A program made the position numbers and the translations under genes. 64,000 nt of DNA. Origin: an uncultured Chloroflexia bacterium (lineage in GTDB: Bacteria > Chloroflexota > Limnocylindria > Limnocylindrales > CSP1-4). Under the pieces are notes generated by a model that saw only the letters and a program-made list of their open reading frames with translations, searched no databases and was not told the origin of the DNA. The DNA lies in the NCBI GenBank assembly GCA_963704775.1, contig CAVPHR010000006.1, forward strand, positions 67,523 through 131,522, given 5' to 3'. This document shows positions 2,462 through 55,406 of the stretch, piece by piece. Positions within the stretch are counted from its first letter, which is position 1; the number at the start of each line of letters is the position of its first letter.

Positions 2462-2477
2462 GGAGGGCGGCTCGCGC

Positions 2478-3209
2478 TCAGTCCCCGGCGCGCTCCTCGA
2501 TGCGGTAGGTGCAGCAGCGATCGCCCGAGGCGATGTGGGTCTCGCGGACCACGTCGGCGCCCAGGACGTCGCGGAAGAGCTCCAGCTCGGCCTGGCAGGC
2601 AGCCGGCGTGGCCCGCGCGACGTGGTAGATCGCGCAGTTGTGCTCGCGCAGCCGGATCGTCCCGTCGGCATCGACCGACGCCTCGGCCAGGTAGCCCTGC
2701 TCGGCCTGGATGACCGCGAGCTCCATGACCAGGTCCTTGAGCGGCGTGCCTTTCGGTGTCCGCTCCGCGAGCTGGCCGCGGACGCGGTCGCCGAGCTGGC
2801 ACCGGCGCGCGGCGAAGACCTCGTCGAGCAGATCGTCGCCGCCGACCGCGCCGATCGCCGCCAGCAGGCCGGCGGCGAGCGCGTCGTACGTGGAGGGGAA
2901 GAGGTCCTGGGCCTCGGGCGTCACGTCGTAGAGGTGCCGCGGCCGGCCCACGCCGTGACGCACGGTCTGGCGGCTGACGAGGTGCGCGGCCTCGAGCGCC
3001 CGGAGCTGCTGGAGGACGCCCGTCCGGGACGCGTCGAGTCGGGCGGCGAGCTGGTCCGGCGACGATGGGCCGTCGAGGCGCAGGCGAAGCAGCAGGTCGC
3101 GGCGCAGGCTCGATGGGCCGCCGCCGACGGATGCGGCACGCGCGGATGCGGGTCCGATGGCTGCGGCCGGTCCGTCCGAGGCCGGGACCGTGGGGGAGGT
3201 CTCGGGCAT
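2478..3209 (-). CDS. ArsR-type winged-helix transcriptional regulator with Cys-containing C-terminal domain
   Basis: ORF-track 243 aa. HTH region: PDQLAARLDASRTGVLQQLRALEAAHLVSRQTVRHGVGRPRHLY. C-terminal part: REHNCAIYHVARATPAACQAE...GDRCCTY (C-X12-C then CC). Divergent from the acyl-CoA dehydrogenase gene. Confidence 0.75.
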   Translation of the reverse strand: MPETSPTVPASDGPAAAIGPASARAASVGGGPSSLRRDLLLRLRLDGPSSPDQLAARLDASRTGVLQQLRALEAAHLVSRQTVRHGVGRPRHLYDVTPEAQDLFPSTYDALAAGLLAAIGAVGGDDLLDEVFAARRCQLGDRVRGQLAERTPKGTPLKDLVMELAVIQAEQGYLAEASVDADGTIRLREHNCAIYHVARATPAACQAELELFRDVLGADVVRETHIASGDRCCTYRIEERAGD

Positions 3210-3283
3210 CCCGGAAGGCTAGCACCGGCGTTCACGACGCGCTGTCCGGCCGAGTCGCGACCGTGGCTGGTACGCTCGCGGCG

Positions 3284-4450
3284 ATGGACCTGGACCTCTC
3301 GCCCGAACACGCGCTCCTGCGCGACACGATCCGCGACTTCATGCTCACCGAGGTCGCGCCCGTCGTCGAGGCGCACGAGCGCGAGCGCCGCTTCCCGGTC
3401 GAGATCGTCCGCCGCATCGGCGAGCTCGGCTGGCTGGGCATCCCGATCCCCGAGGACGAGGGCGGCGCCGGGCTCGACACGCTCGCCTACGCCATCGCGA
3501 TCGAGGAGATCGGCCGCGTCTGGGGGTCGCTCGGGCTGATCGTGGCGGCGCACACGAGCCTCGGGTGCGGGCCGCTCCACCTCGCGGGCTCGAAGGACCA
3601 GCAGCAGCGATTCCTCGTGCCGATGGCACAGGGCACGGTCATCGGGGCCTACGGCCTGACCGAGCCCGGCGCCGGCAGCGACTCCGGCGGCACCCGCACG
3701 ACCGCCAGTCACGAGGACGGGCCCGACGGCGGGTCGTGGGTCATCGACGGCGGCAAGCGCTTCATCACGAACGCCGGCCAGGCGGGAACCTACATCGTCA
3801 CGGCGCGGACCGGATCCCGGGACGACGGCTCGCCCGAGATCAGCGCCTTCATCGTTCCGGCCGACACGCCCGGGTTCTCGGTGGGGCGACTCGAGGACAA
3901 GCTCGGCCTGCACGCGTCGGCGACCGGCGAGCTCCTGTTCGAAGGGGCCCGGATCCCGGCCGCCAACATGCTCGGCGAGCAGGGGAGTGGCTTCAAGACG
4001 TTCCTCGCCATCCTCGATGGCGGGCGGATCAGCATCGGGGCGCTCGCGGTCGGGCTCGCCCAGGCGGCGCTCGACGCCGCCGTCCCGTACGCGCAGACGC
4101 GCGAGCAGTTCGGCCGGCCGATCGGCTCGTTCCAGGGCGTGGCGTTCATGATCGCGGACATGGCGACCGAGATCGACGCTGCCCGGGCGCTCGTCTGGCG
4201 TGCCGCGTGGCTCAAGGACCAGGGTCGCGACTACGGCCTGGCCGCCGCCGAGGCGAAGCTCTTCGCGTCCGAGGTGAGTTCCCGGGCCACCAACAACGCG
4301 ATCCAGGTGCATGGCGGCTACGGGTACGTGACCGACTACCCGGTCGAGCGCTACATGCGCGACGCGAAGCTCACCGAGATCGGCGAGGGGACGAGCCAGG
4401 TGCAGCGGCTCGTGATCGCCCGCAAGATCCTCGGCCTGCGGGTCGTCTAG
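3284..4450 (+). CDS. acyl-CoA dehydrogenase
   Basis: Lies within ORF 3065..4450. The ATG at 3284 gives MDLDLSPEHALLRDTIRDF.... Characteristic ACAD segments: GAYGLTEPGAGSD, KRFITNAG, IQVHGGYGYVTDYPVERYMRDAKLTEIGEGTSQVQR. Confidence 0.92.
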   Translation: MDLDLSPEHALLRDTIRDFMLTEVAPVVEAHERERRFPVEIVRRIGELGWLGIPIPEDEGGAGLDTLAYAIAIEEIGRVWGSLGLIVAAHTSLGCGPLHLAGSKDQQQRFLVPMAQGTVIGAYGLTEPGAGSDSGGTRTTASHEDGPDGGSWVIDGGKRFITNAGQAGTYIVTARTGSRDDGSPEISAFIVPADTPGFSVGRLEDKLGLHASATGELLFEGARIPAANMLGEQGSGFKTFLAILDGGRISIGALAVGLAQAALDAAVPYAQTREQFGRPIGSFQGVAFMIADMATEIDAARALVWRAAWLKDQGRDYGLAAAEAKLFASEVSSRATNNAIQVHGGYGYVTDYPVERYMRDAKLTEIGEGTSQVQRLVIARKILGLRVV

Positions 4451-4453
4451 GCG

Positions 4454-5179
4454 CTAGCCGACCTGGGTCAGCCGGACGATGAGCCGGTACTGGCTCCGCG
4501 AGCCGACGCACGTCTGCAGGGTCAGGCTCGGGTTCTTCTGTGCGGCGTAGGCCCATGTGCCCTTGGTCGGGGTCGTGACCTTCCACCAGGCGACCTTGTA
4601 GGTCCGGACCTGGCCGCTCGAGTCGGCGTAGTAGAGCATCGCGCCCTTCTTGAGCCGGCCGCGAACGTACGCGTCATGGAGCGTCTTGAAGACGCTGTGG
4701 GCATGACCGAACAGGTACACGTTGTTCCGCCCCGCGCAGCCCCAGCGATAGACGCGATTCCCCGGGTACGACTTGTTCGAACACGAATAGGCCGCGACCG
4801 ACTTGTCGATCCGCAGCGACGGCATCCAGATGTGGTTGCGCCCGTGGTACCTGGCGCTGACCGCCGTGTCGCCGCCCGAGCTGACGGCCGGGCGCGGCTC
4901 TGGCAGGCTCGGGACCGGTCGCGTGCCCGGGGCGCCGACGATGATCGCGGGCGCCGCCGCCGAGAGGATCCGCGACACCTCGACGACGCGAGACTGGGCC
5001 GCGAGGACCTCGCCGGTCGGGGCCGGCGCGACCTCGGTCGTCGGCGTCGCGACGGCCGCGGTCGAGCTCGACGGCATCGCTGCGTCGCGGCCGATCGCCC
5101 CCGAAACGGTGCCGATCCCGAGGGTCAGGGCGAGGAGCGAAGGCGTCAGAAAACGGGTGACACGAGGGATCCGGGGCAT
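4454..5179 (-). CDS. sortase family transpeptidase (class E/F-like)
   Basis: ORF-track 241 aa with an N-terminal signal or anchor (FLTPSLLALTLGIGTVSGA). Catalytic motifs are LFGHAH (His) and SLTLQTCVG (TLxTC Cys). Confidence 0.8.
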   Translation of the reverse strand: MPRIPRVTRFLTPSLLALTLGIGTVSGAIGRDAAMPSSSTAAVATPTTEVAPAPTGEVLAAQSRVVEVSRILSAAAPAIIVGAPGTRPVPSLPEPRPAVSSGGDTAVSARYHGRNHIWMPSLRIDKSVAAYSCSNKSYPGNRVYRWGCAGRNNVYLFGHAHSVFKTLHDAYVRGRLKKGAMLYYADSSGQVRTYKVAWWKVTTPTKGTWAYAAQKNPSLTLQTCVGSRSQYRLIVRLTQVG

Positions 5180-47847: not shown

Positions 47848-48630
47848 ATGGACGGCAACGGGCGCACCTACACGGTCGGAGAACTCGCCGACCTTGCGCA
47901 GGTCAGCGTCCGGACGCTCCACCACTACGACGCGATCGGGCTCCTGAGCCCGTCGGAACGGACCGCGTCGGGCTACCGGCTCTATCGCCACGAGGAACTC
48001 GAGGACCTGCAGCAGATCCTGCTGTTCCGGGAGCTCGACTTCCCGCTCGATGCGATCGGGCGCCTGATGCTCGACCCGAACTTCGACCGGCGGGCCGCGC
48101 TGGTCGCCCAACGCGAACAGCTGGCGGGTCGGACCCGTCGCATGGAGGCGATCCTCGCCGCCATCGACAGGGCCTTGGACGCGCTCTCGAAAGGAACGAC
48201 GATGAACGACGCCGACATGTTCGAGGTCTTCGGCGACTTCGACCCCAAGGCCTACGAGATCGAGGTCAAGGAGCGCTGGGGCGACACGGACGCCTACGCC
48301 GAGTCGGCGCGCCGGACCGCTAGCTACACCAAGGACGATTGGAAGGCGATCAAGGCCGAGAGCGAGGCCATCGGGACGGGCCTCGGCGCGGCGCTGGCCG
48401 CCGGCACAGCCCCGGGCGACCCCGAGGTCCAGGCGCTCGTCGAGCGTCACCGGCTGCAGATCGACACGCGGTTCTACCCGTGCTCGAAGGAGATGCACGC
48501 AACGCTCGGCGATATGTACGTCGCCGACCCGCGGTTCGAGGCGACCTACGAGCGGATCCAGCCCGGCCTCGCCCGGTTCGTCCGCGATGCGATCCGGATC
48601 AACGCGGGGATGCCGCCGGCCGCCGACTGA
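47848..48630 (+). CDS. MerR-family transcriptional regulator with TipAS-like C-terminal ligand domain (TipAL/Mta-like)
   Basis: Intact 260-aa ORF. The N-terminal MerR HTH is YTVGELADLAQVSVRTLHHYDAIGLLSPSERTASGYRLY. A coiled-coil linker follows, then a C-terminal domain with WGDTDAYAES...YPCSKEMHATLGDMYVADPRFEATYE. Confidence 0.9.
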   Translation: MDGNGRTYTVGELADLAQVSVRTLHHYDAIGLLSPSERTASGYRLYRHEELEDLQQILLFRELDFPLDAIGRLMLDPNFDRRAALVAQREQLAGRTRRMEAILAAIDRALDALSKGTTMNDADMFEVFGDFDPKAYEIEVKERWGDTDAYAESARRTASYTKDDWKAIKAESEAIGTGLGAALAAGTAPGDPEVQALVERHRLQIDTRFYPCSKEMHATLGDMYVADPRFEATYERIQPGLARFVRDAIRINAGMPPAAD

Positions 48631-51194: not shown

Positions 51195-52205
51195 TCAGGC
51201 GCTCGAGGCGGGACTGGCCACGATCGGGCTCACCTCCGGCGCGGTCGCCCGCTTCGGGGACGACATCCGGCTCCGGGTCGTCACGATGAGCGCCACGGCG
51301 AAGACGATGATCGCGCCCGCGAGCAGCGTCCGTGGCTCGATGGGCTCCTGCAGCACGAGGGCGCCGAGGGCGACCGCGACGACCGGATTGACGTACGCGT
51401 AGGTCGCGATCAGCGGCAACGGCGCGACGCGTAGCAGCCAGCCGTACGTCGTGAACGCCAGCAGGCTGCCGATGACGGTCAGGTAGACGAGCGCCGTCAG
51501 CGACTCGGCCGAGACGGCCGCGGGATCGAAGACGCCGAACTCGCCCCTCACGGTGGCCATGACCGTCAGGACGGCGGCACCGGCCAGCATCTGGGCACTC
51601 GTCGCAAGAAGCGGCCTGCGCGGCAGGGTCGCGCGATGCGACGCGAACAGCGAGCCGAGCGTCCAGAAGATCGGGGAGAGGAGGACCGCGGCCAGGCCGA
51701 GCGGATCGAGGGAGCCGCTGCCACCGAAGGCCGAGGGTCCGACCAGGATCGCGACGCCGACGAAGCCGACCGCGATGCCGACGATGGCGAGCCGCGGCAG
51801 CCCCTCGCCGAGGAACAGCCGCCCGAAGATCGCGACCCAGACCGGCATGAGCGCGATGAGCAACGCGGTGATGCCGGACGGGATCGTCAGCTCCCCGAAC
51901 GCGACCATGCCCATGCCGCCGCCGAGCAGCAAGCCGCCCACGATGAACGAGTCGCGCCATTCACGGCGGGTCGGTGCGACGAAGTCACCGCGATCGCGAG
52001 CGAGCGACCAGAGGAGCAGGACGGCCCCGGCGATGCCGAAGCGGATCGCCGCCATGAGGAAGGGCGGGATCGTCTCGACGGCCACGGCGATGCCGAGGTA
52101 CGTCGAGCCCCAGACGACGTAGAGGACCAGCATGCCGGCCCACAGCGAGGCGCCGCGACGCGAGGCAGCGGCGGCCGGCTTGGTTGGCATAGGCGGGTGG
52201 TCCAA
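51195..52205 (-). CDS. EamA/DMT-superfamily transporter
   Basis: Intact 336-aa ORF with about 10 TM helices and two EamA-like halves (LYVVWGSTYLGIAVAVE..., YAYVNPVVAVALGALVLQEPI). Confidence 0.85.
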   Translation of the reverse strand: MDHPPMPTKPAAAASRRGASLWAGMLVLYVVWGSTYLGIAVAVETIPPFLMAAIRFGIAGAVLLLWSLARDRGDFVAPTRREWRDSFIVGGLLLGGGMGMVAFGELTIPSGITALLIALMPVWVAIFGRLFLGEGLPRLAIVGIAVGFVGVAILVGPSAFGGSGSLDPLGLAAVLLSPIFWTLGSLFASHRATLPRRPLLATSAQMLAGAAVLTVMATVRGEFGVFDPAAVSAESLTALVYLTVIGSLLAFTTYGWLLRVAPLPLIATYAYVNPVVAVALGALVLQEPIEPRTLLAGAIIVFAVALIVTTRSRMSSPKRATAPEVSPIVASPASSA

Positions 52206-52277: not shown

Positions 52278-53069
52278 TCAGGCGGCGACCGCCGCGCCGC
52301 CGCTCACCGGCCGGCAGACCTTGCACGGTCGGTATCCGGCGGCGGCCGCGTCCTCGAGCGACCGGAACGGCCGGCGGTTGCGCTCGAGCATGTGGCGACC
52401 GGTGCGGCACGTCGGCCAGCACACGATGTGGGTCGAGGCGCAGCCGATCAGCCGCTCGCCGCGGCGAGCGGCGCCTTCCATCTCGTCGGGGTCGAGGCCC
52501 TCGGAGGCGAGGATCGCGCGCTTGTTCTCCGGTCCGCCCAGCGAGTACTGGCCGAGGTGGCCGTCGGTGCGGACGACCCGATGGCACGGCACGATGAGCG
52601 GGACCGGGTTGTGGCCGAGCGCCGTTCCGACCGCGCGGACCGCCTTCGGTCGACCGATCTCGGCGGCGACCCAGCCGTACGGTCGGACTTCGCCGCGCGG
52701 GATGTCGAGCGCCTTCCGCCACACATCGCGCTCGAACTCGCTGTGGCCACGCAGGTCGAGGTCGATGCGCACGCGGCGATCGCCACCGAGCCGCCGCTCG
52801 ATCGCTCTCGCAAGGTCGGCGGGGAGTTCATCGGTCGGGAAGACCGGCCGCCCGGTCCGGGCAGCGTGGCTCGCGGCGAACTCCTCGGACTCCACGCCGC
52901 TGACGCCCAGGCCGTTCCACGCGACGTGGAGCGGGCCGATCACGGTGTCGATGCGGGCCATCCGGTCGGCGAGGCCGATCTCGACGAGGACGTTGGGGGC
53001 GAGGCGGGTCGGGGCGGTCGTGGCGAGGTCGGCCATCGCGGTCTCCAGGGTCAGGTCATCGGTGGTCAT
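52278..53069 (-). CDS. methylated-DNA-protein-cysteine methyltransferase (Ogt/MGMT) fused to a C-terminal Ada-type Cys4 zinc domain
   Basis: Lies within ORF 52278..53855 with ATG at 53069. It has an MGMT N-domain, then ...VRPYGWVAAEIGRPKAVRAVGTALGHNPVPLIVPCHRVV (the PCHR active site). The C-terminus VCWPTCRTGRHMLERNRRPFRSLEDAAAAGYRPCKVCRP parallels the E. coli Ada segment as I recall it (FCRPSCRAR...FRPCKRCQP). No AraC-type HTH is present. Confidence 0.85.
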   Translation of the reverse strand: MTTDDLTLETAMADLATTAPTRLAPNVLVEIGLADRMARIDTVIGPLHVAWNGLGVSGVESEEFAASHAARTGRPVFPTDELPADLARAIERRLGGDRRVRIDLDLRGHSEFERDVWRKALDIPRGEVRPYGWVAAEIGRPKAVRAVGTALGHNPVPLIVPCHRVVRTDGHLGQYSLGGPENKRAILASEGLDPDEMEGAARRGERLIGCASTHIVCWPTCRTGRHMLERNRRPFRSLEDAAAAGYRPCKVCRPVSGGAAVAA

Positions 53070-53674
53070 GCGGTCATCTCCTCGCGCTCGAGTCGGTTCG
53101 CCGTCTCGAAGGCGGTGCGCAACATCGCCAGGCCGCGGTGGACCTGGGCCTTGACGGTGCCCTCGGGTCGTCCGAGGGCGAGGGCGAGATCGGGATAGGA
53201 CAGGCCGTCGACGTGTCGCAGGACGACGGCGGCCCGGTAGGCGGGCGGCAGGGTCGCAAGGAGGCCGGCCCAGTGGTCCCGGGCGGCTCGCCGTTCCGCG
53301 ACCGCCGTCGGTGATGTCGACGGGTCCGTCGCGGCCGGCTCCGGCAGCGTCACCCGCTCGGGATCGGCGTCGAGCGAGAGCGGCGCCCGGCCGGCGGTCG
53401 CGCGTCGCGCGAGTCGCGTTCGACACAGGTTCAGCACGATCGTGGCCAGCCACGGCCGCAGGCGCAGCTCCAGGATCCGCGTGGCGTCGTAGCCGGAAAG
53501 GGCCCGATAGGCGCGCACGAAGGCGTCCTGGGCGGCCTCCTCGGCTGCGCCTGGGTCGCTCAGCATCCGCAGCGCGATCGAGTAGCAACGGTCCTGGTGC
53601 GCCAGCACGAGCCTCTCGAACGTCCCGTCGAGATCGTGCGCGAGCCCAGCGATGAGCGCGTCGTCGGTGTCCAT
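53066..53674 (-). CDS. ECF-type RNA polymerase sigma-70 factor
   Basis: Lies within ORF 53066..53845 with ATG at 53674 (MDTDDALIAGLAHD...). Region 2 is AEEAAQDAFVRAYRAL...RPWLATIVLNLCRTRL. Region 4 is YRAAVVLRHVDGLSYPDLALALGRPEGTVKAQVHRGLAMLR. Its stop overlaps the downstream ATG by 4 nt. Confidence 0.88.
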   Translation of the reverse strand: MDTDDALIAGLAHDLDGTFERLVLAHQDRCYSIALRMLSDPGAAEEAAQDAFVRAYRALSGYDATRILELRLRPWLATIVLNLCRTRLARRATAGRAPLSLDADPERVTLPEPAATDPSTSPTAVAERRAARDHWAGLLATLPPAYRAAVVLRHVDGLSYPDLALALGRPEGTVKAQVHRGLAMLRTAFETANRLEREEMTA

Positions 53675-53902
53675 CGCCCTCCAGAACCGGCACGAGGCAC
53701 GGAGCGTTGCATCCGACCATCGCCCGTGTGGATAAGGTACCCGGCCCGACCGTGCCCGACAGATTGAGGCGAGCCGATCCTCCGGCATAGGCAGCCGGCC
53801 CGATGGCGGGGCCGTTCGCCAGATCGAGCATGGCGACAGCACCACGGACCGTCACTCGGATGTCCCGAGCGCCGATCCTGGTCCAGACAAGGAGGTCGGA
53901 CG

Positions 53903-54304
53903 ATGTCCGCCAGCACCACGCAGCCCATGGCCGGGCATGCCAACCAGAGCGCGCCGCTCGGCGCGATCGCCATCCTCGTCGGCGCGCTCGCGCTCGGCGC
54001 GGTCGGCATCGCTCTCGGCACGACCTACAAGGCGGCGCCCGCCGCCGGCGCCATCAGCCCGCAGGCCGCGCTCGAAGCGCAGCGAAAGGGCGAGATCGGC
54101 GGGAGCGCCACGATGGACTACGCGCTCCGGATCCAGCGCCGCGGCGAGATCGGTGGATCCGCTGTGGCAGCCCCCACGGTCGCCAAGAGTGGCGTCCCGA
54201 GCGGCGTCTCGGGTCCCCGGACGCGGTCGCACAGGGGTCACCCCGCACCGCTCGTCGCGCTTCCCGTCGACGCCCCGTCGCGAACGCAGTACACCCGCCG
54301 CTAG
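53903..54304 (+). CDS. small membrane-anchored hypothetical protein with duplicated QR(K/R)GEIGGSA motif
   Basis: The ATG at 53903 is preceded by AAGGAGG. It has one TM (LGAIAILVGALALGAVGIALG) and the repeats QRKGEIGGSA and QRRGEIGGSA. It is followed by a canonical terminator. Confidence 0.65.
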   Translation: MSASTTQPMAGHANQSAPLGAIAILVGALALGAVGIALGTTYKAAPAAGAISPQAALEAQRKGEIGGSATMDYALRIQRRGEIGGSAVAAPTVAKSGVPSGVSGPRTRSHRGHPAPLVALPVDAPSRTQYTRR

Positions 54305-54326: not shown

Positions 54327-54360
54327 GACACCGCCCGACACCGTTCGGGCGGTGTCTTTT
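54327..54360 (+). terminator. rho-independent terminator
   Basis: The 11-bp stem GACACCGCCCG / CGGGCGGTGTC encloses an 8-nt loop and is followed by TTTT (54357-54360). Confidence 0.8.
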
Positions 54361-54392
54361 CATGCCCCGTGCGTGCGACAATCGCTCCGCCG

Positions 54393-55406
54393 ATGCAGCT
54401 CGATGAACGCTTCGACGACCTCGTCGCCAGCCTGGCCGGGTTCCACAACACCTGGCTGGTGTATCTGGGTGTCGAGCTGGGCATCTTCACGCACCTCCGC
54501 GCCGCCGGGGCAGCCGGCCTGACCACGGTCGAACTCGCCGAGGCCACGGGCTGTCGGCCGGAGGCGATCGAAGTTTGGGCGTGGGCGGCCGACGCCCACG
54601 AGCTCGCCACGCTCGAGGGTGACCGGCTGACGGTCGACGAGAACACCGCGATCGTGCTCCTCGACGAGCAGCGCCCCGAATTCCTTGGCGGCCAATTCGT
54701 GCACTCGGTGACGGCGTCGCTCGACTGGGGCGGGATGCTCGACTTCTTCCGGACCGGGCGCCCGATCACCGATCGGCCCGATCGCTATCGCGTGTCGATC
54801 GAGCGCCTCACCGTCCAGGACATCGCCGTGTTCTTCCAGGAGGTCCTCGCCCAGCTGCCGCAGCTCGTCGCCGACCTCGCGAGTGGCGGCCACGTGGTCG
54901 ACATCCACTGCGGCGGCGGCCGCTGGCTCATCGCGATGGCCCGCCGGTTCCCGGCGCTGCAACTCGTCGGGGTCGAGTTCGAGCCCGACTCGGTCATGCG
55001 CGCGCGGGCGAACGTCGAGGCAGCCGGACTGTCCGACCGGATCGTGATCCGCCAGGCCGATGTCAGCCGACCCGGTCCGGCCGGCGAGTACGACCTGGCC
55101 TACTTCCAGTACGCGATCCACCAGCTGACAGACCCGGTCGCCGCGCTGCGGGCGGCGTGGGGGTCGCTCCGACCCGGTGGCCGGATCGTCGTCCTCGACT
55201 GGCCCCTGCCGTCAACGACGGAGGAGTTCCGGACGCGCCACGGCGAGCTGATCACGGGCGTCCAGATCGACGAGCTCTACCAGGGCACGGCGCTCCCGAC
55301 GCGCGAGAAGCTGCGCGAATGGTTCGCGGCCGCGGAGCTCCCAGAGCCGCTGCTCATCGACCTGCCGTCTGGCGCCTCGGTGCTGCAGGTCGAACGCCCG
55401 AGCTAG
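54393..55406 (+). CDS. class I SAM-dependent methyltransferase with N-terminal winged-helix/dimerisation-like domain (O-methyltransferase-like)
   Basis: Lies within ORF 53937..55406 with ATG at 54393 (MQLDERFDDLVASLAGFHNTW...). SAM motif I is VVDIHCGGGRWLIAMARRF. Later segment: LRPGGRIVVLDWPLP. Confidence 0.8.
   Translation: MQLDERFDDLVASLAGFHNTWLVYLGVELGIFTHLRAAGAAGLTTVELAEATGCRPEAIEVWAWAADAHELATLEGDRLTVDENTAIVLLDEQRPEFLGGQFVHSVTASLDWGGMLDFFRTGRPITDRPDRYRVSIERLTVQDIAVFFQEVLAQLPQLVADLASGGHVVDIHCGGGRWLIAMARRFPALQLVGVEFEPDSVMRARANVEAAGLSDRIVIRQADVSRPGPAGEYDLAYFQYAIHQLTDPVAALRAAWGSLRPGGRIVVLDWPLPSTTEEFRTRHGELITGVQIDELYQGTALPTREKLREWFAAAELPEPLLIDLPSGASVLQVERPS

What the first reader, a model, noticed from the sequence alone, without database searches (positions are those of the whole stretch)
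52278..53674. ECF sigma factor translationally coupled to an Ogt + Ada-Zn(Cys4) fusion: possible alkylation-sensing sigma/anti-sigma-like module
The ECF sigma gene (53066..53674) ends 4 nt inside the start of the next gene (ATG at 53069), which is where an anti-sigma factor is normally encoded. The partner is instead a complete O6-alkylguanine methyltransferase (PCHRV active site) fused at its C-terminus to an Ada-type Cys4 zinc module (VCWPTCRTGR...GYRPCKVCRP). In E. coli Ada that module, at the N-terminus, accepts methyl groups from DNA methylphosphotriesters and switches on transcription through AraC-type HTH domains. Here the domain order is reversed and no HTH is present. A damage-sensing domain with no DNA-binding output, tightly coupled to a sigma factor, suggests the methylation signal is passed to the ECF sigma by protein-protein contact. 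I am not aware of this being characterised, but I cannot search the literature.
Basis: partly seen in the sequence, partly recalled or inferred. Interest (0 to 1): 0.62.

Follow-up and report, generated by a model that had tools for sequence, protein, structure and literature searches.

The report
Sigma factor paired with alkyl-repair sensor

Summary
On the minus strand, an ECF sigma gene (53674..53066) overlaps by ATGA a 263-aa gene (53069..52278). That gene encodes a two-domain O6-alkylguanine alkyltransferase (PCHRV) plus a C-terminal Ada-type Cys4 zinc domain.

The pairing is not chance. In four genome scans (320 loci; Chloroflexota, Actinomycetota, Dormibacterota, Acidobacteriota and others), sigma and partner were adjacent wherever the contig allowed, whichever gene seeded the scan, usually with the same 4-nt overlap.

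An ECF-type promoter (TGCAAC-N17-GGTTC) lies directly upstream of sigma in 161/194 loci, so the operon is probably autoregulated.

Some relatives carry a full zf-HC2 anti-sigma domain N-terminal to the same Ogt+Ada body. The window protein's 35-residue N-terminal extension aligns to the last-helix segment of that domain, which in solved complexes binds sigma region 2.

Two Streptomyces genomes have a partner with a dead Ogt site, an intact Ada zinc site and a separate ogt downstream.

Best reading: a consumable, alkylation-sensing anti-sigma factor driving an Ada-like adaptive response. Binding and release remain inferred.

A 2022 review lists the sigma–Ogt association as group ECF122, "unknown mechanism", so the association is not new.

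The parts
53679..53715 (-). ECF-type promoter of the operon. The -35 element TGCAAC is at 53711..53706 and the -10 element GGTTCT is at 53688..53683. The GTT core ends 10 nt before the sigma start codon, so the transcript is predicted to be leaderless or to have a very short leader.
   Evidence: CAAC-N15-20-GTT is found upstream of sigma in 161/194 distinct loci, with an 18-nt spacer in 152. The distance from GTT to the start codon is 10 nt in 98 loci. The PWM score here is 28; the next best score in the 64-kb window is 11.7, inside the shuffle range of 2-13.
53066..53674 (-). ECF sigma factor gene (202 aa; sigma2 plus sigma4 only).
   Evidence: Pfam Sigma70_r2 and Sigma70_r4_2; NCBIfam TIGR02937 at 76 bits against a 42.9 cut-off. 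Sources name its homologues 'RNA polymerase sigma-70 factor (ECF subfamily)'.
53066..53069 (-). ATGA stop/start overlap (translational coupling) between sigma and partner.
   Evidence: Read directly. The overlap is -4 nt in 75/80, 58/80 and 64/75 related loci.
52278..53069 (-). Partner gene (263 aa): N-terminal extension, two-domain Ogt and Ada zinc domain. Proposed anti-sigma factor and alkylation sensor.
52965..53069 (-). N-terminal extension (residues 1-35) with two predicted helices (5-14 and 25-30) and the conserved motif L15..A19-P20..L23...V27-L28...G32-L-A-D35. Proposed sigma-binding element, equivalent to the end of helix 3 plus helix 4 of class I anti-sigma domains.
   Evidence: Conservation across 75 orthologues. 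It aligns to the segment after HxxxCxxC in zf-HC2-bearing relatives. hhalign gives probability 84%, E 7e-6. 4 of the top-20 inter-protein DCA couplings link residues 19-25 to sigma regions 2.1/2.2. Helices are taken from the AlphaFold model.
52497..52964 (-). O6-alkylguanine-DNA alkyltransferase body. The N-domain spans residues ~36-105 and DNA_binding_1 spans residues 111-191. The PCHRV active site is at 52589..52575 (Cys162 codon 52586..52584).
   Evidence: Pfam E 2.4e-30. Y131, R145, N154, C162, H163 and E190 are invariant in a 15-sequence alignment of diverse relatives. Foldseek matches M. tuberculosis OGT, E. coli Ada-C and human AGT.
52308..52454 (-). Ada-type Cys4 zinc domain (residues 206-254). 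Cys217 (codon 52421..52419) is the equivalent of Cys38, the methyl acceptor of E. coli Ada.
   Evidence: Pfam Ada_Zn_binding, E 9e-10. phmmer to N-Ada 1adn/1wpk gives E 4e-8 with all four Cys aligned. C217 and C221 are conserved in at least 98% of 75 orthologues, and C249 and C252 in 90-98%.
51195..52205 (-). EamA-family transporter gene, 72 nt downstream on the same strand. Probably the third gene of the operon in this lineage only.
   Evidence: Pfam EamA, E 1.7e-29. It lies downstream in about 74 of 80 Limnocylindrales loci but is not conserved in other phyla. No terminator-like site lies between it and the partner gene.

Best explanation
This is a two-gene regulatory module in which the alkyltransferase acts as the anti-sigma factor and damage sensor for its own ECF sigma.

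Proposed working, step by step:
1. Sigma and partner are made in about equal amounts through the ATGA coupling. This is shown by the sequence.
2. The partner's short two-helix N-terminal extension, a cut-down class I anti-sigma domain, holds sigma region 2 and blocks binding to RNA polymerase core. Other surfaces may contribute. This is inferred from homology and weak covariation.
3. When DNA is alkylated, the partner irreversibly takes the alkyl group onto Cys162 (O6-alkylguanine) and/or Cys217 (methylphosphotriester). The catalytic residues are present; activity is inferred.
4. The alkylated, spent protein changes conformation or is degraded and lets sigma go. This step is inferred.
5. Free sigma transcribes its own promoter TGCAAC-N17-GGTTC. 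That makes more sigma and more fresh repair protein, plus EamA here or a second Ogt in other lineages. The promoter is shown by conservation; its use is inferred.
6. Surplus unalkylated partner re-captures sigma once damage stops.

Functionally this would be an Ada-like adaptive response whose output is a sigma factor instead of an AraC-type DNA-binding domain.
For: - Forward scans. Sigma lies directly upstream of the partner in 79/79 assessable Limnocylindrales loci. It does so in 80/80 loci from many phyla and in 71/76 further loci, where 3 of the 5 exceptions are contig ends.
- Reverse scan. A scan seeded with actinobacterial sigmas finds the partner directly downstream in 75/77 loci; the other 2 are contig ends.
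- Coupling. The ATGA overlap is kept in most loci.
- Promoter. An ECF-type promoter sits at a fixed distance from the sigma start in 161/194 loci. It is the only strong site in the 64-kb window, so the regulon seems to be the operon itself.
- Fusion evidence. Relatives P0164, P0199 and P0146 combine Pfam zf-HC2, DNA_binding_1 and Ada_Zn_binding. Loci L100, L136 and L151 have an HxxxCxxC N-terminus and an upstream sigma. The profile of these N-termini hits the solved anti-sigma domains RslA, RsiW, DdvA and ChrR.
- N-terminal extension. It aligns to the post-CxxC segment of that domain (hhalign 84%, E 7e-6). In class I anti-sigma domains helix 4 binds sigma regions 2.1/2.2 (PMC7406223).
- Covariation. 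4 of the top-20 inter-protein DCA couplings link partner residues 19-25 to sigma residues 22-57. Only 0.5% of equal-size boxes reach that count.
- Subfunctionalised variant. In Streptomyces somaliensis the partner has PSHRV (dead Ogt), an intact Ada Cys4 site and a canonical ogt as the next gene. A second Streptomyces locus (L310) also lacks PCHR, keeps the Ada Cys4 site and has a second ogt downstream. This points to a regulatory rather than purely enzymatic role.
- Precedents. E. coli Ada is switched by methylation of Cys38. Caulobacter Cada2 is switched by methylation of its PCHR cysteine (PMC10957082).
Against: - No binding, release or induction data exist for any member. The literature lists the mechanism as unknown.
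- The window protein itself lacks the HxxxCxxC motif and three quarters of a canonical anti-sigma domain.
- The short N-terminal profile alone finds no solved anti-sigma factor.
- hhalign probability is only 84%, and DCA is underpowered (Neff 137) with most top couplings scattered.
- No complex model could be made; the pseudo-fusion attempt failed.
- Tight coupling to a sigma gene is also what one would see if the repair gene were merely the main cargo of the regulon.
Confidence: 0.5

Rival explanations
1. Cargo only. The sigma factor is controlled by something else (transcription, another protein, or no post-translational control). The Ogt+Ada protein is simply the main gene it expresses, and the N-terminal extension has a role inside the repair protein.
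For: The regulon appears to be just the operon. The review classes the group as lacking a cognate anti-sigma factor. The window protein has no recognisable full anti-sigma domain. The short N-terminal profile finds nothing in the PDB.
Against: - This does not explain relatives with a genuine zf-HC2 anti-sigma domain fused to the same body.
- It does not explain the conserved N-terminal motif that aligns to that domain.
- It does not explain the Streptomyces partner, which has lost the Ogt active-site cysteine yet is retained between sigma and a real ogt.
- An unregulated, positively autoregulated sigma would be locked on.
Confidence: 0.2
2. The partner is an anti-sigma factor, but the signal is not DNA alkylation. 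Its reactive thiolates (the Cys4 zinc site and the low-pKa PCHR cysteine) sense free electrophiles or oxidants directly, as in RsrA-type thiol switches.
For: Zinc-thiolate anti-sigma factors that sense thiol-reactive stress are a known class; this is established knowledge of RsrA and ChrR, not tested here. Both cysteine sites are conserved.
Against: - The full DNA-repair catalytic set is invariant (Tyr131, Arg145 finger, Asn154, His163, Glu190). That argues for selection on DNA-dependent alkyl transfer.
- Extra canonical ogt genes sit in or beside the operon in 13 other loci, which points to alkylation repair as the output.
Confidence: 0.12
3. Co-activator rather than inhibitor. The methylated partner binds DNA near the promoter or contacts the ECF sigma to stimulate transcription, the way methylated E. 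coli Ada contacts RNA polymerase.
For: Ada is an activator, as is Cada2. A conserved GGTACC(G/T)T motif lies 15 nt upstream of the -35 element in 27 loci and is unexplained.
Against: - There is no sequence-specific HTH apart from the non-specific Ogt fold.
- The homology of the N-terminus is to inhibitory anti-sigma domains.
- The GGTACC motif is confined to one clade and may belong to the divergent methyltransferase promoter.
Confidence: 0.1

Closest known systems
ECF group ECF122 (Casas-Pastor et al. 2021 classification, as summarised in PMC8999054)
   Same: It is an ECF sigma with a conserved 6-O-methylguanine DNA methyltransferase neighbour and no separate anti-sigma gene. It is listed under 'unknown mechanism', with an actinobacterial example (Cellulomonas sp. 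Root930). The family found here includes many Actinomycetota.
   Different: Membership could not be checked against the ECF122 model or its example protein. The summary does not mention the Ada zinc domain, the anti-sigma-like N-terminus, the promoter, or the spread into Chloroflexota, Dormibacterota and Acidobacteriota.
E. coli Ada (adaptive response regulator)
   Same: One polypeptide carries both methyl-acceptor modules: the Cys4 zinc site with a Cys38 equivalent, and the PCHRV Ogt. Expression is autoregulated. Irreversible self-methylation serves as the signal.
   Different: The domain order is reversed, with the zinc module at the C-terminus. There is no AraC-type HTH. The output would be release of a dedicated sigma factor rather than direct promoter binding.
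Caulobacter Cada2 (PMC10957082)
   Same: It shows that methylation of the PCHR cysteine of an Ogt-like domain can itself be the regulatory switch. That matters for relatives here that lack the Ada zinc domain.
   Different: Cada2 is a DNA-binding transcription factor with HTH domains, and no sigma factor is involved.
Class I (ZAS-type) anti-sigma factors: RslA-SigL, RsiW-SigW, ChrR-SigE
   Same: The gene position is immediately after an autoregulated ECF sigma. Relatives carry an HxxxCxxC domain whose profile hits these solved proteins (E 4e-5 to 2e-3). The window protein keeps the 'AP..L...VL' segment, which aligns to RsiW 'EAPADFTANVMAK'.
   Different: The window protein lacks helices 1-3 and the zinc-binding motif. 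Its sensor part is a soluble suicide DNA-repair enzyme rather than a membrane, cupin or redox module.
[quoted passage not shown]
   Same: It is a minimal two-helix sigma-binding element, with one helix on sigma4 and one on sigma2 (as described in PMC7406223). The window protein's N-terminal extension is also predicted as two short helices.
   Different: No sequence similarity was tested or expected. CnrY is a small membrane protein. The resemblance is architectural only.

Membership tests
ECF (group 4) sigma-70 factors | Only regions sigma2 and sigma4; matches the ECF profile. | tested here: met
   Sigma70_r2 plus Sigma70_r4_2 in 202 aa. TIGR02937 scores 76 bits against a cut-off of 42.9.
ECF122 group | Conserved 6-O-methylguanine DNA methyltransferase gene next to sigma. 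| tested here: met
   The partner is adjacent in essentially all assessable loci, in both search directions.
ECF122 group | No separate cognate anti-sigma gene. | tested here: met
   The window neighbours are an EamA transporter, a small unannotated membrane ORF and a SAM methyltransferase. Neighbours vary between phyla.
ECF122 group | Sequence match to the group's own HMM or clustering with its named member WP_057211282.1. | not testable with these tools
   The ECF Hub models and the supplement of PMC7826278 are not held. The example sequence could not be fetched.
O6-alkylguanine-DNA alkyltransferase (Ogt/AGT) | PCHRV active site plus the Tyr, Arg-finger, Asn hinge, His and Glu catalytic set. 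| tested here: met
   Y131, R145, N154, P161-V165 and E190 are invariant in the alignment of diverse relatives. TIGR00589 scores 94 bits against a 46.4 cut-off.
O6-alkylguanine-DNA alkyltransferase (Ogt/AGT) | Two-domain fold: an RNase-like N-domain plus an HTH C-domain. | tested here: met
   Foldseek matches 4wxd, 4bhb and 1sfe at E 6e-9 to 1e-7, TM on target 0.65-0.69, over 157-174 columns. Pfam Methyltransf_1N itself was not hit.
O6-alkylguanine-DNA alkyltransferase (Ogt/AGT) | Stoichiometric alkyl transfer from DNA. | not testable with these tools
   This needs a biochemical assay.
Ada N-terminal zinc domain (PF02805) | Four Cys zinc ligands, including the Cys38-equivalent methyl acceptor. 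| tested here: met
   C217/C221/C249/C252 align to Ada C38/C42/C69/C72. Pfam gives 38.9 bits against a cut-off of 23. C217 and C221 are conserved in at least 98% of 75 orthologues, and C249 and C252 in 90-98%.
E. coli-type Ada transcriptional regulator | AraC-family HTH DNA-binding domain following an N-terminal zinc domain. | tested here: not met
   There is no HTH_18/AraC hit and the zinc domain is C-terminal. The NCBIfam Ada equivalog scores 106.7 bits against a cut-off of 345.
Class I anti-sigma domain (ASDI / ZAS) | Four-helix N-terminal domain, with HxxxCxxC in the ZAS subgroup. | tested here: not met
   The window protein has only about 35 residues before the Ogt N-domain and no HxxxCxxC. 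Relatives P0164, P0199 and P0146 do have zf-HC2.
Class I anti-sigma domain (ASDI / ZAS) | Homology of the N-terminal extension to the helix-4 (sigma2-binding) segment. | tested here: inconclusive
   hhalign gives 84% probability and E 7e-6 against the ZAS-type relatives. The link to solved structures is only transitive, and there is no direct hit.
Class I anti-sigma domain (ASDI / ZAS) | Physical binding and inhibition of the cognate sigma. | not testable with these tools
   No multimer prediction is offered. The DCA signal is weak.

The most novel reading that the evidence does not exclude
A suicide DNA-repair enzyme doubles as a consumable anti-sigma factor. Irreversible alkyl transfer from damaged DNA to the protein would be the input signal of an ECF sigma pathway. 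That would make a previously uncharacterised, widespread non-Ada adaptive response in Actinomycetota, Chloroflexota, Dormibacterota and Acidobacteriota. It comes in three grades of sensor: a full ZAS domain, a two-helix remnant, and a dead-Ogt pure sensor.
Probability: 0.45. Interest if true: 0.75.

Novelty: new member of a known kind. Interest (0 to 1): 0.6.

Why it matters
ECF sigma factors are one of the main bacterial signalling systems. ECF122 is one of the groups explicitly listed as having an unknown mechanism.

If the model is right, it adds a new kind of signal input to sigma/anti-sigma biology: covalent, irreversible consumption of the inhibitor by its own repair reaction. It would also explain how large groups of soil bacteria that lack an E. 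coli-type Ada could mount an inducible response to alkylation damage.

The analysis turns an unexplained catalogue entry into a specific set of experiments:
- The N-terminal residues 1-35 as the proposed sigma-binding element.
- Cys162 and Cys217 as candidate switches.
- A defined promoter for reporter assays.
- Cultured hosts to work in, such as Nonomuraea, Actinomadura and Streptomyces somaliensis.

Tried and rejected
1. AlphaFold on P0042, a natural frameshift pseudo-fusion of sigma4 and the partner. MAFFT laid the sigma rows over the Ogt domain, giving pLDDT 67, and the tool reports no contacts anyway, so it was uninformative.
2. True sigma-Ogt fusions as Rosetta-stone evidence. The long database proteins P0212, P0154, P0220, P0359 and P0042, and loci L030 and L037, have truncated or garbled domains. 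They look like indel artefacts of long-read MAGs and were not counted as evidence.
3. A search of the PDB with the short N-terminal profile alone found nothing.
4. Mean-field DCA on 226 pairs was underpowered and gave only a local enrichment.
5. A search for further regulon members in the window with the promoter PWM found none above noise. The site at 48110-48146 scores 11.7, inside the shuffle range.
6. Conserved repair neighbours beyond the pair. Neighbours vary between phyla, and my GC3-based gene picking partly chose antisense ORFs, so only broad statements are made.
7. Soil metatranscriptome contigs. They cover the sigma/partner junction but give no transcript start and may contain DNA.
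8. The 19-sequence alignment A2 was too diverse for the locus finder.
9. The ECF122 text in the original classification paper. It is not in the main text, and the supplement is not held.
Full report
**What is there.** On the minus strand of the window, a 202-aa ORF (53674..53066) carries Sigma70_r2 and Sigma70_r4_2. It passes the NCBIfam ECF sigma model. Its last codons read GAG ATG ACC GCA TGA. The ATG of the next ORF (53069..52278, 263 aa) overlaps the stop codon as ATGA.

The second protein has three parts:
- DNA_binding_1 at residues 111-191 (E 2.4e-30), with PCHRV at 161-165.
- Ada_Zn_binding at residues 206-254 (E 9e-10).
- Four cysteines (217, 221, 249, 252) that align to Cys38, 42, 69 and 72 of E. 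coli N-Ada, so Cys217 is the equivalent of the methyl acceptor.

Pfam did not report Methyltransf_1N. However, an AlphaFold model (pLDDT 77.3) matches the entire two-domain OGT of M. tuberculosis, E. coli Ada-C and human AGT. Its C-terminal part matches N-Ada. There is no AraC-type HTH.

**Whose genome it is.** The closest proteins and loci are from soil metagenome-assembled genomes labelled Chloroflexota / Candidatus Limnocylindrales. The DNA is found in soil metagenomes.

**Is the pairing conserved?** There were four scans of one-genome-per-species contigs.
- Scan 1 was seeded with the window partner. It returned 80 Limnocylindrales loci at 57-98% identity. Sigma is directly upstream in all 79 with upstream DNA, and the junction is the same 4-nt overlap in 75.
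- Scan 2 was seeded with distant relatives. It returned 80 loci from Anaerolineales, Ktedonobacterales, Thermomicrobiales, Acidimicrobiia, Dormibacterota, Acidobacteriota, Longimicrobiales and Entotheonella. All 80 have a homologous sigma directly upstream, and 58 have the ATGA overlap.
- Scan 3 returned 76 assessable loci, including cultured Nonomuraea, Actinomadura, Nocardiopsis and Actinokineospora. Sigma is upstream in 71. Three of the five exceptions are contig ends, and two are a different Ogt type without the N-terminal extension.
- Scan 4 was the reverse test, seeded with actinobacterial sigmas only. It returned 77 assessable loci with the partner directly downstream in 75; the other two are contig ends. 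64 have the ATGA overlap.

Among 226 non-identical complete pairs:
- 215 have the short N-terminus, the Ada Cys4 site and PCHR.
- 6 lack the Ada zinc domain.
- 2 have a full ZAS N-terminus.
- 2 keep the Ada zinc site but lack the PCHR cysteine.
- 1 has neither the Ada Cys4 site nor PCHR.

Chance adjacency is excluded.

**Promoter.** Immediately upstream of sigma there is a conserved ECF-type promoter, TGCAAC(G/C)-N17-(G/T)GTT(C)(T).
- CAAC-N15-20-GTT occurs in 161 of 194 distinct upstream regions, with an 18-nt spacer in 152.
- The GTT core is exactly 10 nt from the start codon in 98 of them. This predicts a leaderless or near-leaderless, autoregulated transcript.
- In the window the site is 53715..53679, with a PWM score of 28. 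The next best score in 64 kb is 11.7, within the range of shuffled sequence. The regulon therefore appears to be the operon itself.
- No terminator-like site separates the partner gene from the EamA transporter gene downstream. EamA is a Limnocylindrales-specific addition, since neighbours differ in other phyla.

**Evidence that the partner is more than cargo.**

First, the fusion evidence. A search of 50%-identity cluster representatives found ~300-aa relatives (P0164, P0199, P0146) whose Pfam architecture is zf-HC2 + DNA_binding_1 + Ada_Zn_binding. Loci L100, L136 and L151 encode an HxxxCxxC N-terminus on the partner, with the sigma upstream. A profile of these N-termini hits solved class I anti-sigma domains: RslA (3hug_B, 4e-5), RsiW (5wuq_C, 5.5e-5), DdvA and ChrR.

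Second, the N-terminal extension. The window protein's first 35 residues carry the conserved motif L..L...AP..L...VL...GLxD.
- They align to the segment right after the CxxC of those relatives.
- A profile-profile comparison restricted to the N-termini gives 84% probability and E 7e-6.
- In the RsiW alignment the matching stretch is 'EAPADFTANVMAK'.
- According to PMC7406223, helix 4 of class I anti-sigma domains binds sigma regions 2.1/2.2 and blocks core binding. The class II factor CnrY manages with two helices.
- The model of the window protein predicts two short helices here, at residues 5-14 and 25-30.

Third, covariation. A mean-field DCA on the 226 pairs is underpowered (Neff 137). Even so, four of the twenty strongest inter-protein couplings join partner residues 19-25 to sigma residues 22, 28, 52 and 57, which lie in regions 2.1 and 2.2. 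Only 0.5% of equal-size boxes in the matrix reach that count. I treat this as suggestive only.

Fourth, a subfunctionalised variant. In Streptomyces somaliensis the partner has lost the active-site cysteine (PSHRV) and the arginine-finger region. It keeps the Ada Cys4 domain, and a canonical Methyltransf_1N + DNA_binding_1 ogt follows as the next gene. A second Streptomyces locus (L310) also lacks PCHR, keeps the Ada Cys4 site and has a second ogt downstream. In all, a second ogt lies in or beside the module in 13 loci: these two Streptomyces plus 11 from Ktedonobacteria, Pseudonocardiales, Dormibacterota and others. This is what one expects if the partner is a sensor and regulator and the output is alkylation repair.

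**Mechanism proposed.** Sigma and partner are made together. The partner's N-terminal helices hold sigma2. Alkyl transfer from damaged DNA to Cys162 and/or Cys217 irreversibly converts the partner, and sigma is released. Sigma then drives its own promoter and replenishes the consumed repair protein. Surplus fresh partner shuts the response off.

What is shown and what is inferred:
- Shown: gene structure, conservation, the promoter motif, the catalytic residues and the fusion relatives.
- Inferred: binding, which cysteine is the switch, and how alkylation causes release.
- Precedents for both switches exist. Methylation of Cys38 activates E. coli Ada. Methylation of the PCHR cysteine activates Caulobacter Cada2 (PMC10957082).
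- Relatives lacking the zinc domain (Nocardiopsis, Actinokineospora) and relatives lacking the Ogt cysteine (Streptomyces) suggest that either site can serve as the switch.

**Rivals.** Each is scored in the rival section.
- The partner is only cargo.
- The partner is an anti-sigma factor that senses free electrophiles or oxidants rather than DNA lesions.
- The partner is a co-activator.

**Comparison with what is known.** A 2022 review (PMC8999054) lists '6-O-methylguanine DNA methyltransferases (ECF122)' among conserved neighbours of ECF sigmas without anti-sigma factors. Its table files ECF122 under 'unknown mechanism', with a Cellulomonas example, citing the 2021 reclassification. No paper in the library links ECF sigma factors, Ogt and alkylation experimentally.

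The association is therefore already catalogued, and this window is a new member, from Chloroflexota, of a catalogued but uncharacterised kind. I could not test formal ECF122 membership. It is not an E. coli-type Ada, because it has no AraC HTH and the domain order is reversed. The window protein also fails the definition of a class I anti-sigma domain, although it probably retains that domain's sigma2-binding segment.

**Expression.** Soil metatranscriptome assemblies contain short contigs over sigma and partner. One matches 53057-53152 exactly and spans the junction. This is compatible with co-transcription, but it is weak evidence and gives no transcript start.

**Verdict.** Novelty is limited by the existing catalogue entry. 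Interest is moderate to high, because a specific and testable mechanism now exists for an 'unknown mechanism' ECF group.

Noticed in passing
window 53903-54304 (+), hairpin 54337-54356 (+): A small ORF of 133 aa in the 685-bp gap between sigma and the methyltransferase gene. It has one predicted membrane helix and an internal repeat QR(K/R)GEIGGSA, and no Pfam family. It is conserved at protein level in close relatives (95% in L001, 76% in L002, 49-69% in L004-L008 and L074). A terminator-like hairpin with a T-run follows it. It is probably a real unannotated gene. Its cytoplasmic N-terminus (~17 aa) is too short for an anti-sigma domain.
   Followed up: partly
window 53731-53742 and 53758-53770 (- strand); related loci upstream of the -35 element: The palindromic motif GGTACC(G/T)T is conserved upstream of the promoter: 15 nt from GCAAC in 27 loci, and about 30 nt here. 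In the window's sub-lineage there is also a block GCCTCAATCTGTC, and in most other Limnocylindrales a block GATTGTCGCA. These could be an operator or part of the divergent methyltransferase promoter. Unexplained.
   Followed up: partly
window 54360-55406 (+): A SAM-dependent methyltransferase (Methyltransf_25/11, with a weak O-methyltransferase dimerisation domain) is transcribed divergently from sigma. In most Limnocylindrales loci it starts only ~100 nt from the sigma promoter. It is lineage-specific and its function is unknown.
   Followed up: partly
L302 (Streptomyces somaliensis DSM 40738) 2473-4478; L310 (Streptomyces sp. CA2R106): A variant module. In L302 the partner has PSHRV (no active-site Cys) and a degenerate Arg-finger region but an intact Ada Cys4 domain, and a canonical stand-alone ogt follows immediately. 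L310 likewise lacks PCHR, keeps the Ada Cys4 site and has a second ogt downstream. This looks like subfunctionalisation into sensor plus enzyme.
   Followed up: yes
P0042, P0359, P0212, P0154, P0220; L030 3317-4798, L037: Database 'fusion' proteins of sigma and Ogt have truncated or out-of-frame domains. They most likely come from indel errors at the ATGA junction or inside sigma in long-read MAG assemblies. They should not be read as natural fusions.
   Followed up: yes
window 48110-48146 (-): The second-best match to the promoter PWM (TGCGAC-N17-TGTTC, score 11.7). It lies within the range seen in shuffled sequence and is probably noise.
   Followed up: partly
L225, L228 (Candidatus Microthrix and a related Actinomycetota MAG): Ogt proteins of ~196 aa without the N-terminal motif and without an upstream sigma. 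This shows that the N-terminal extension and the sigma partnership go together.
   Followed up: no
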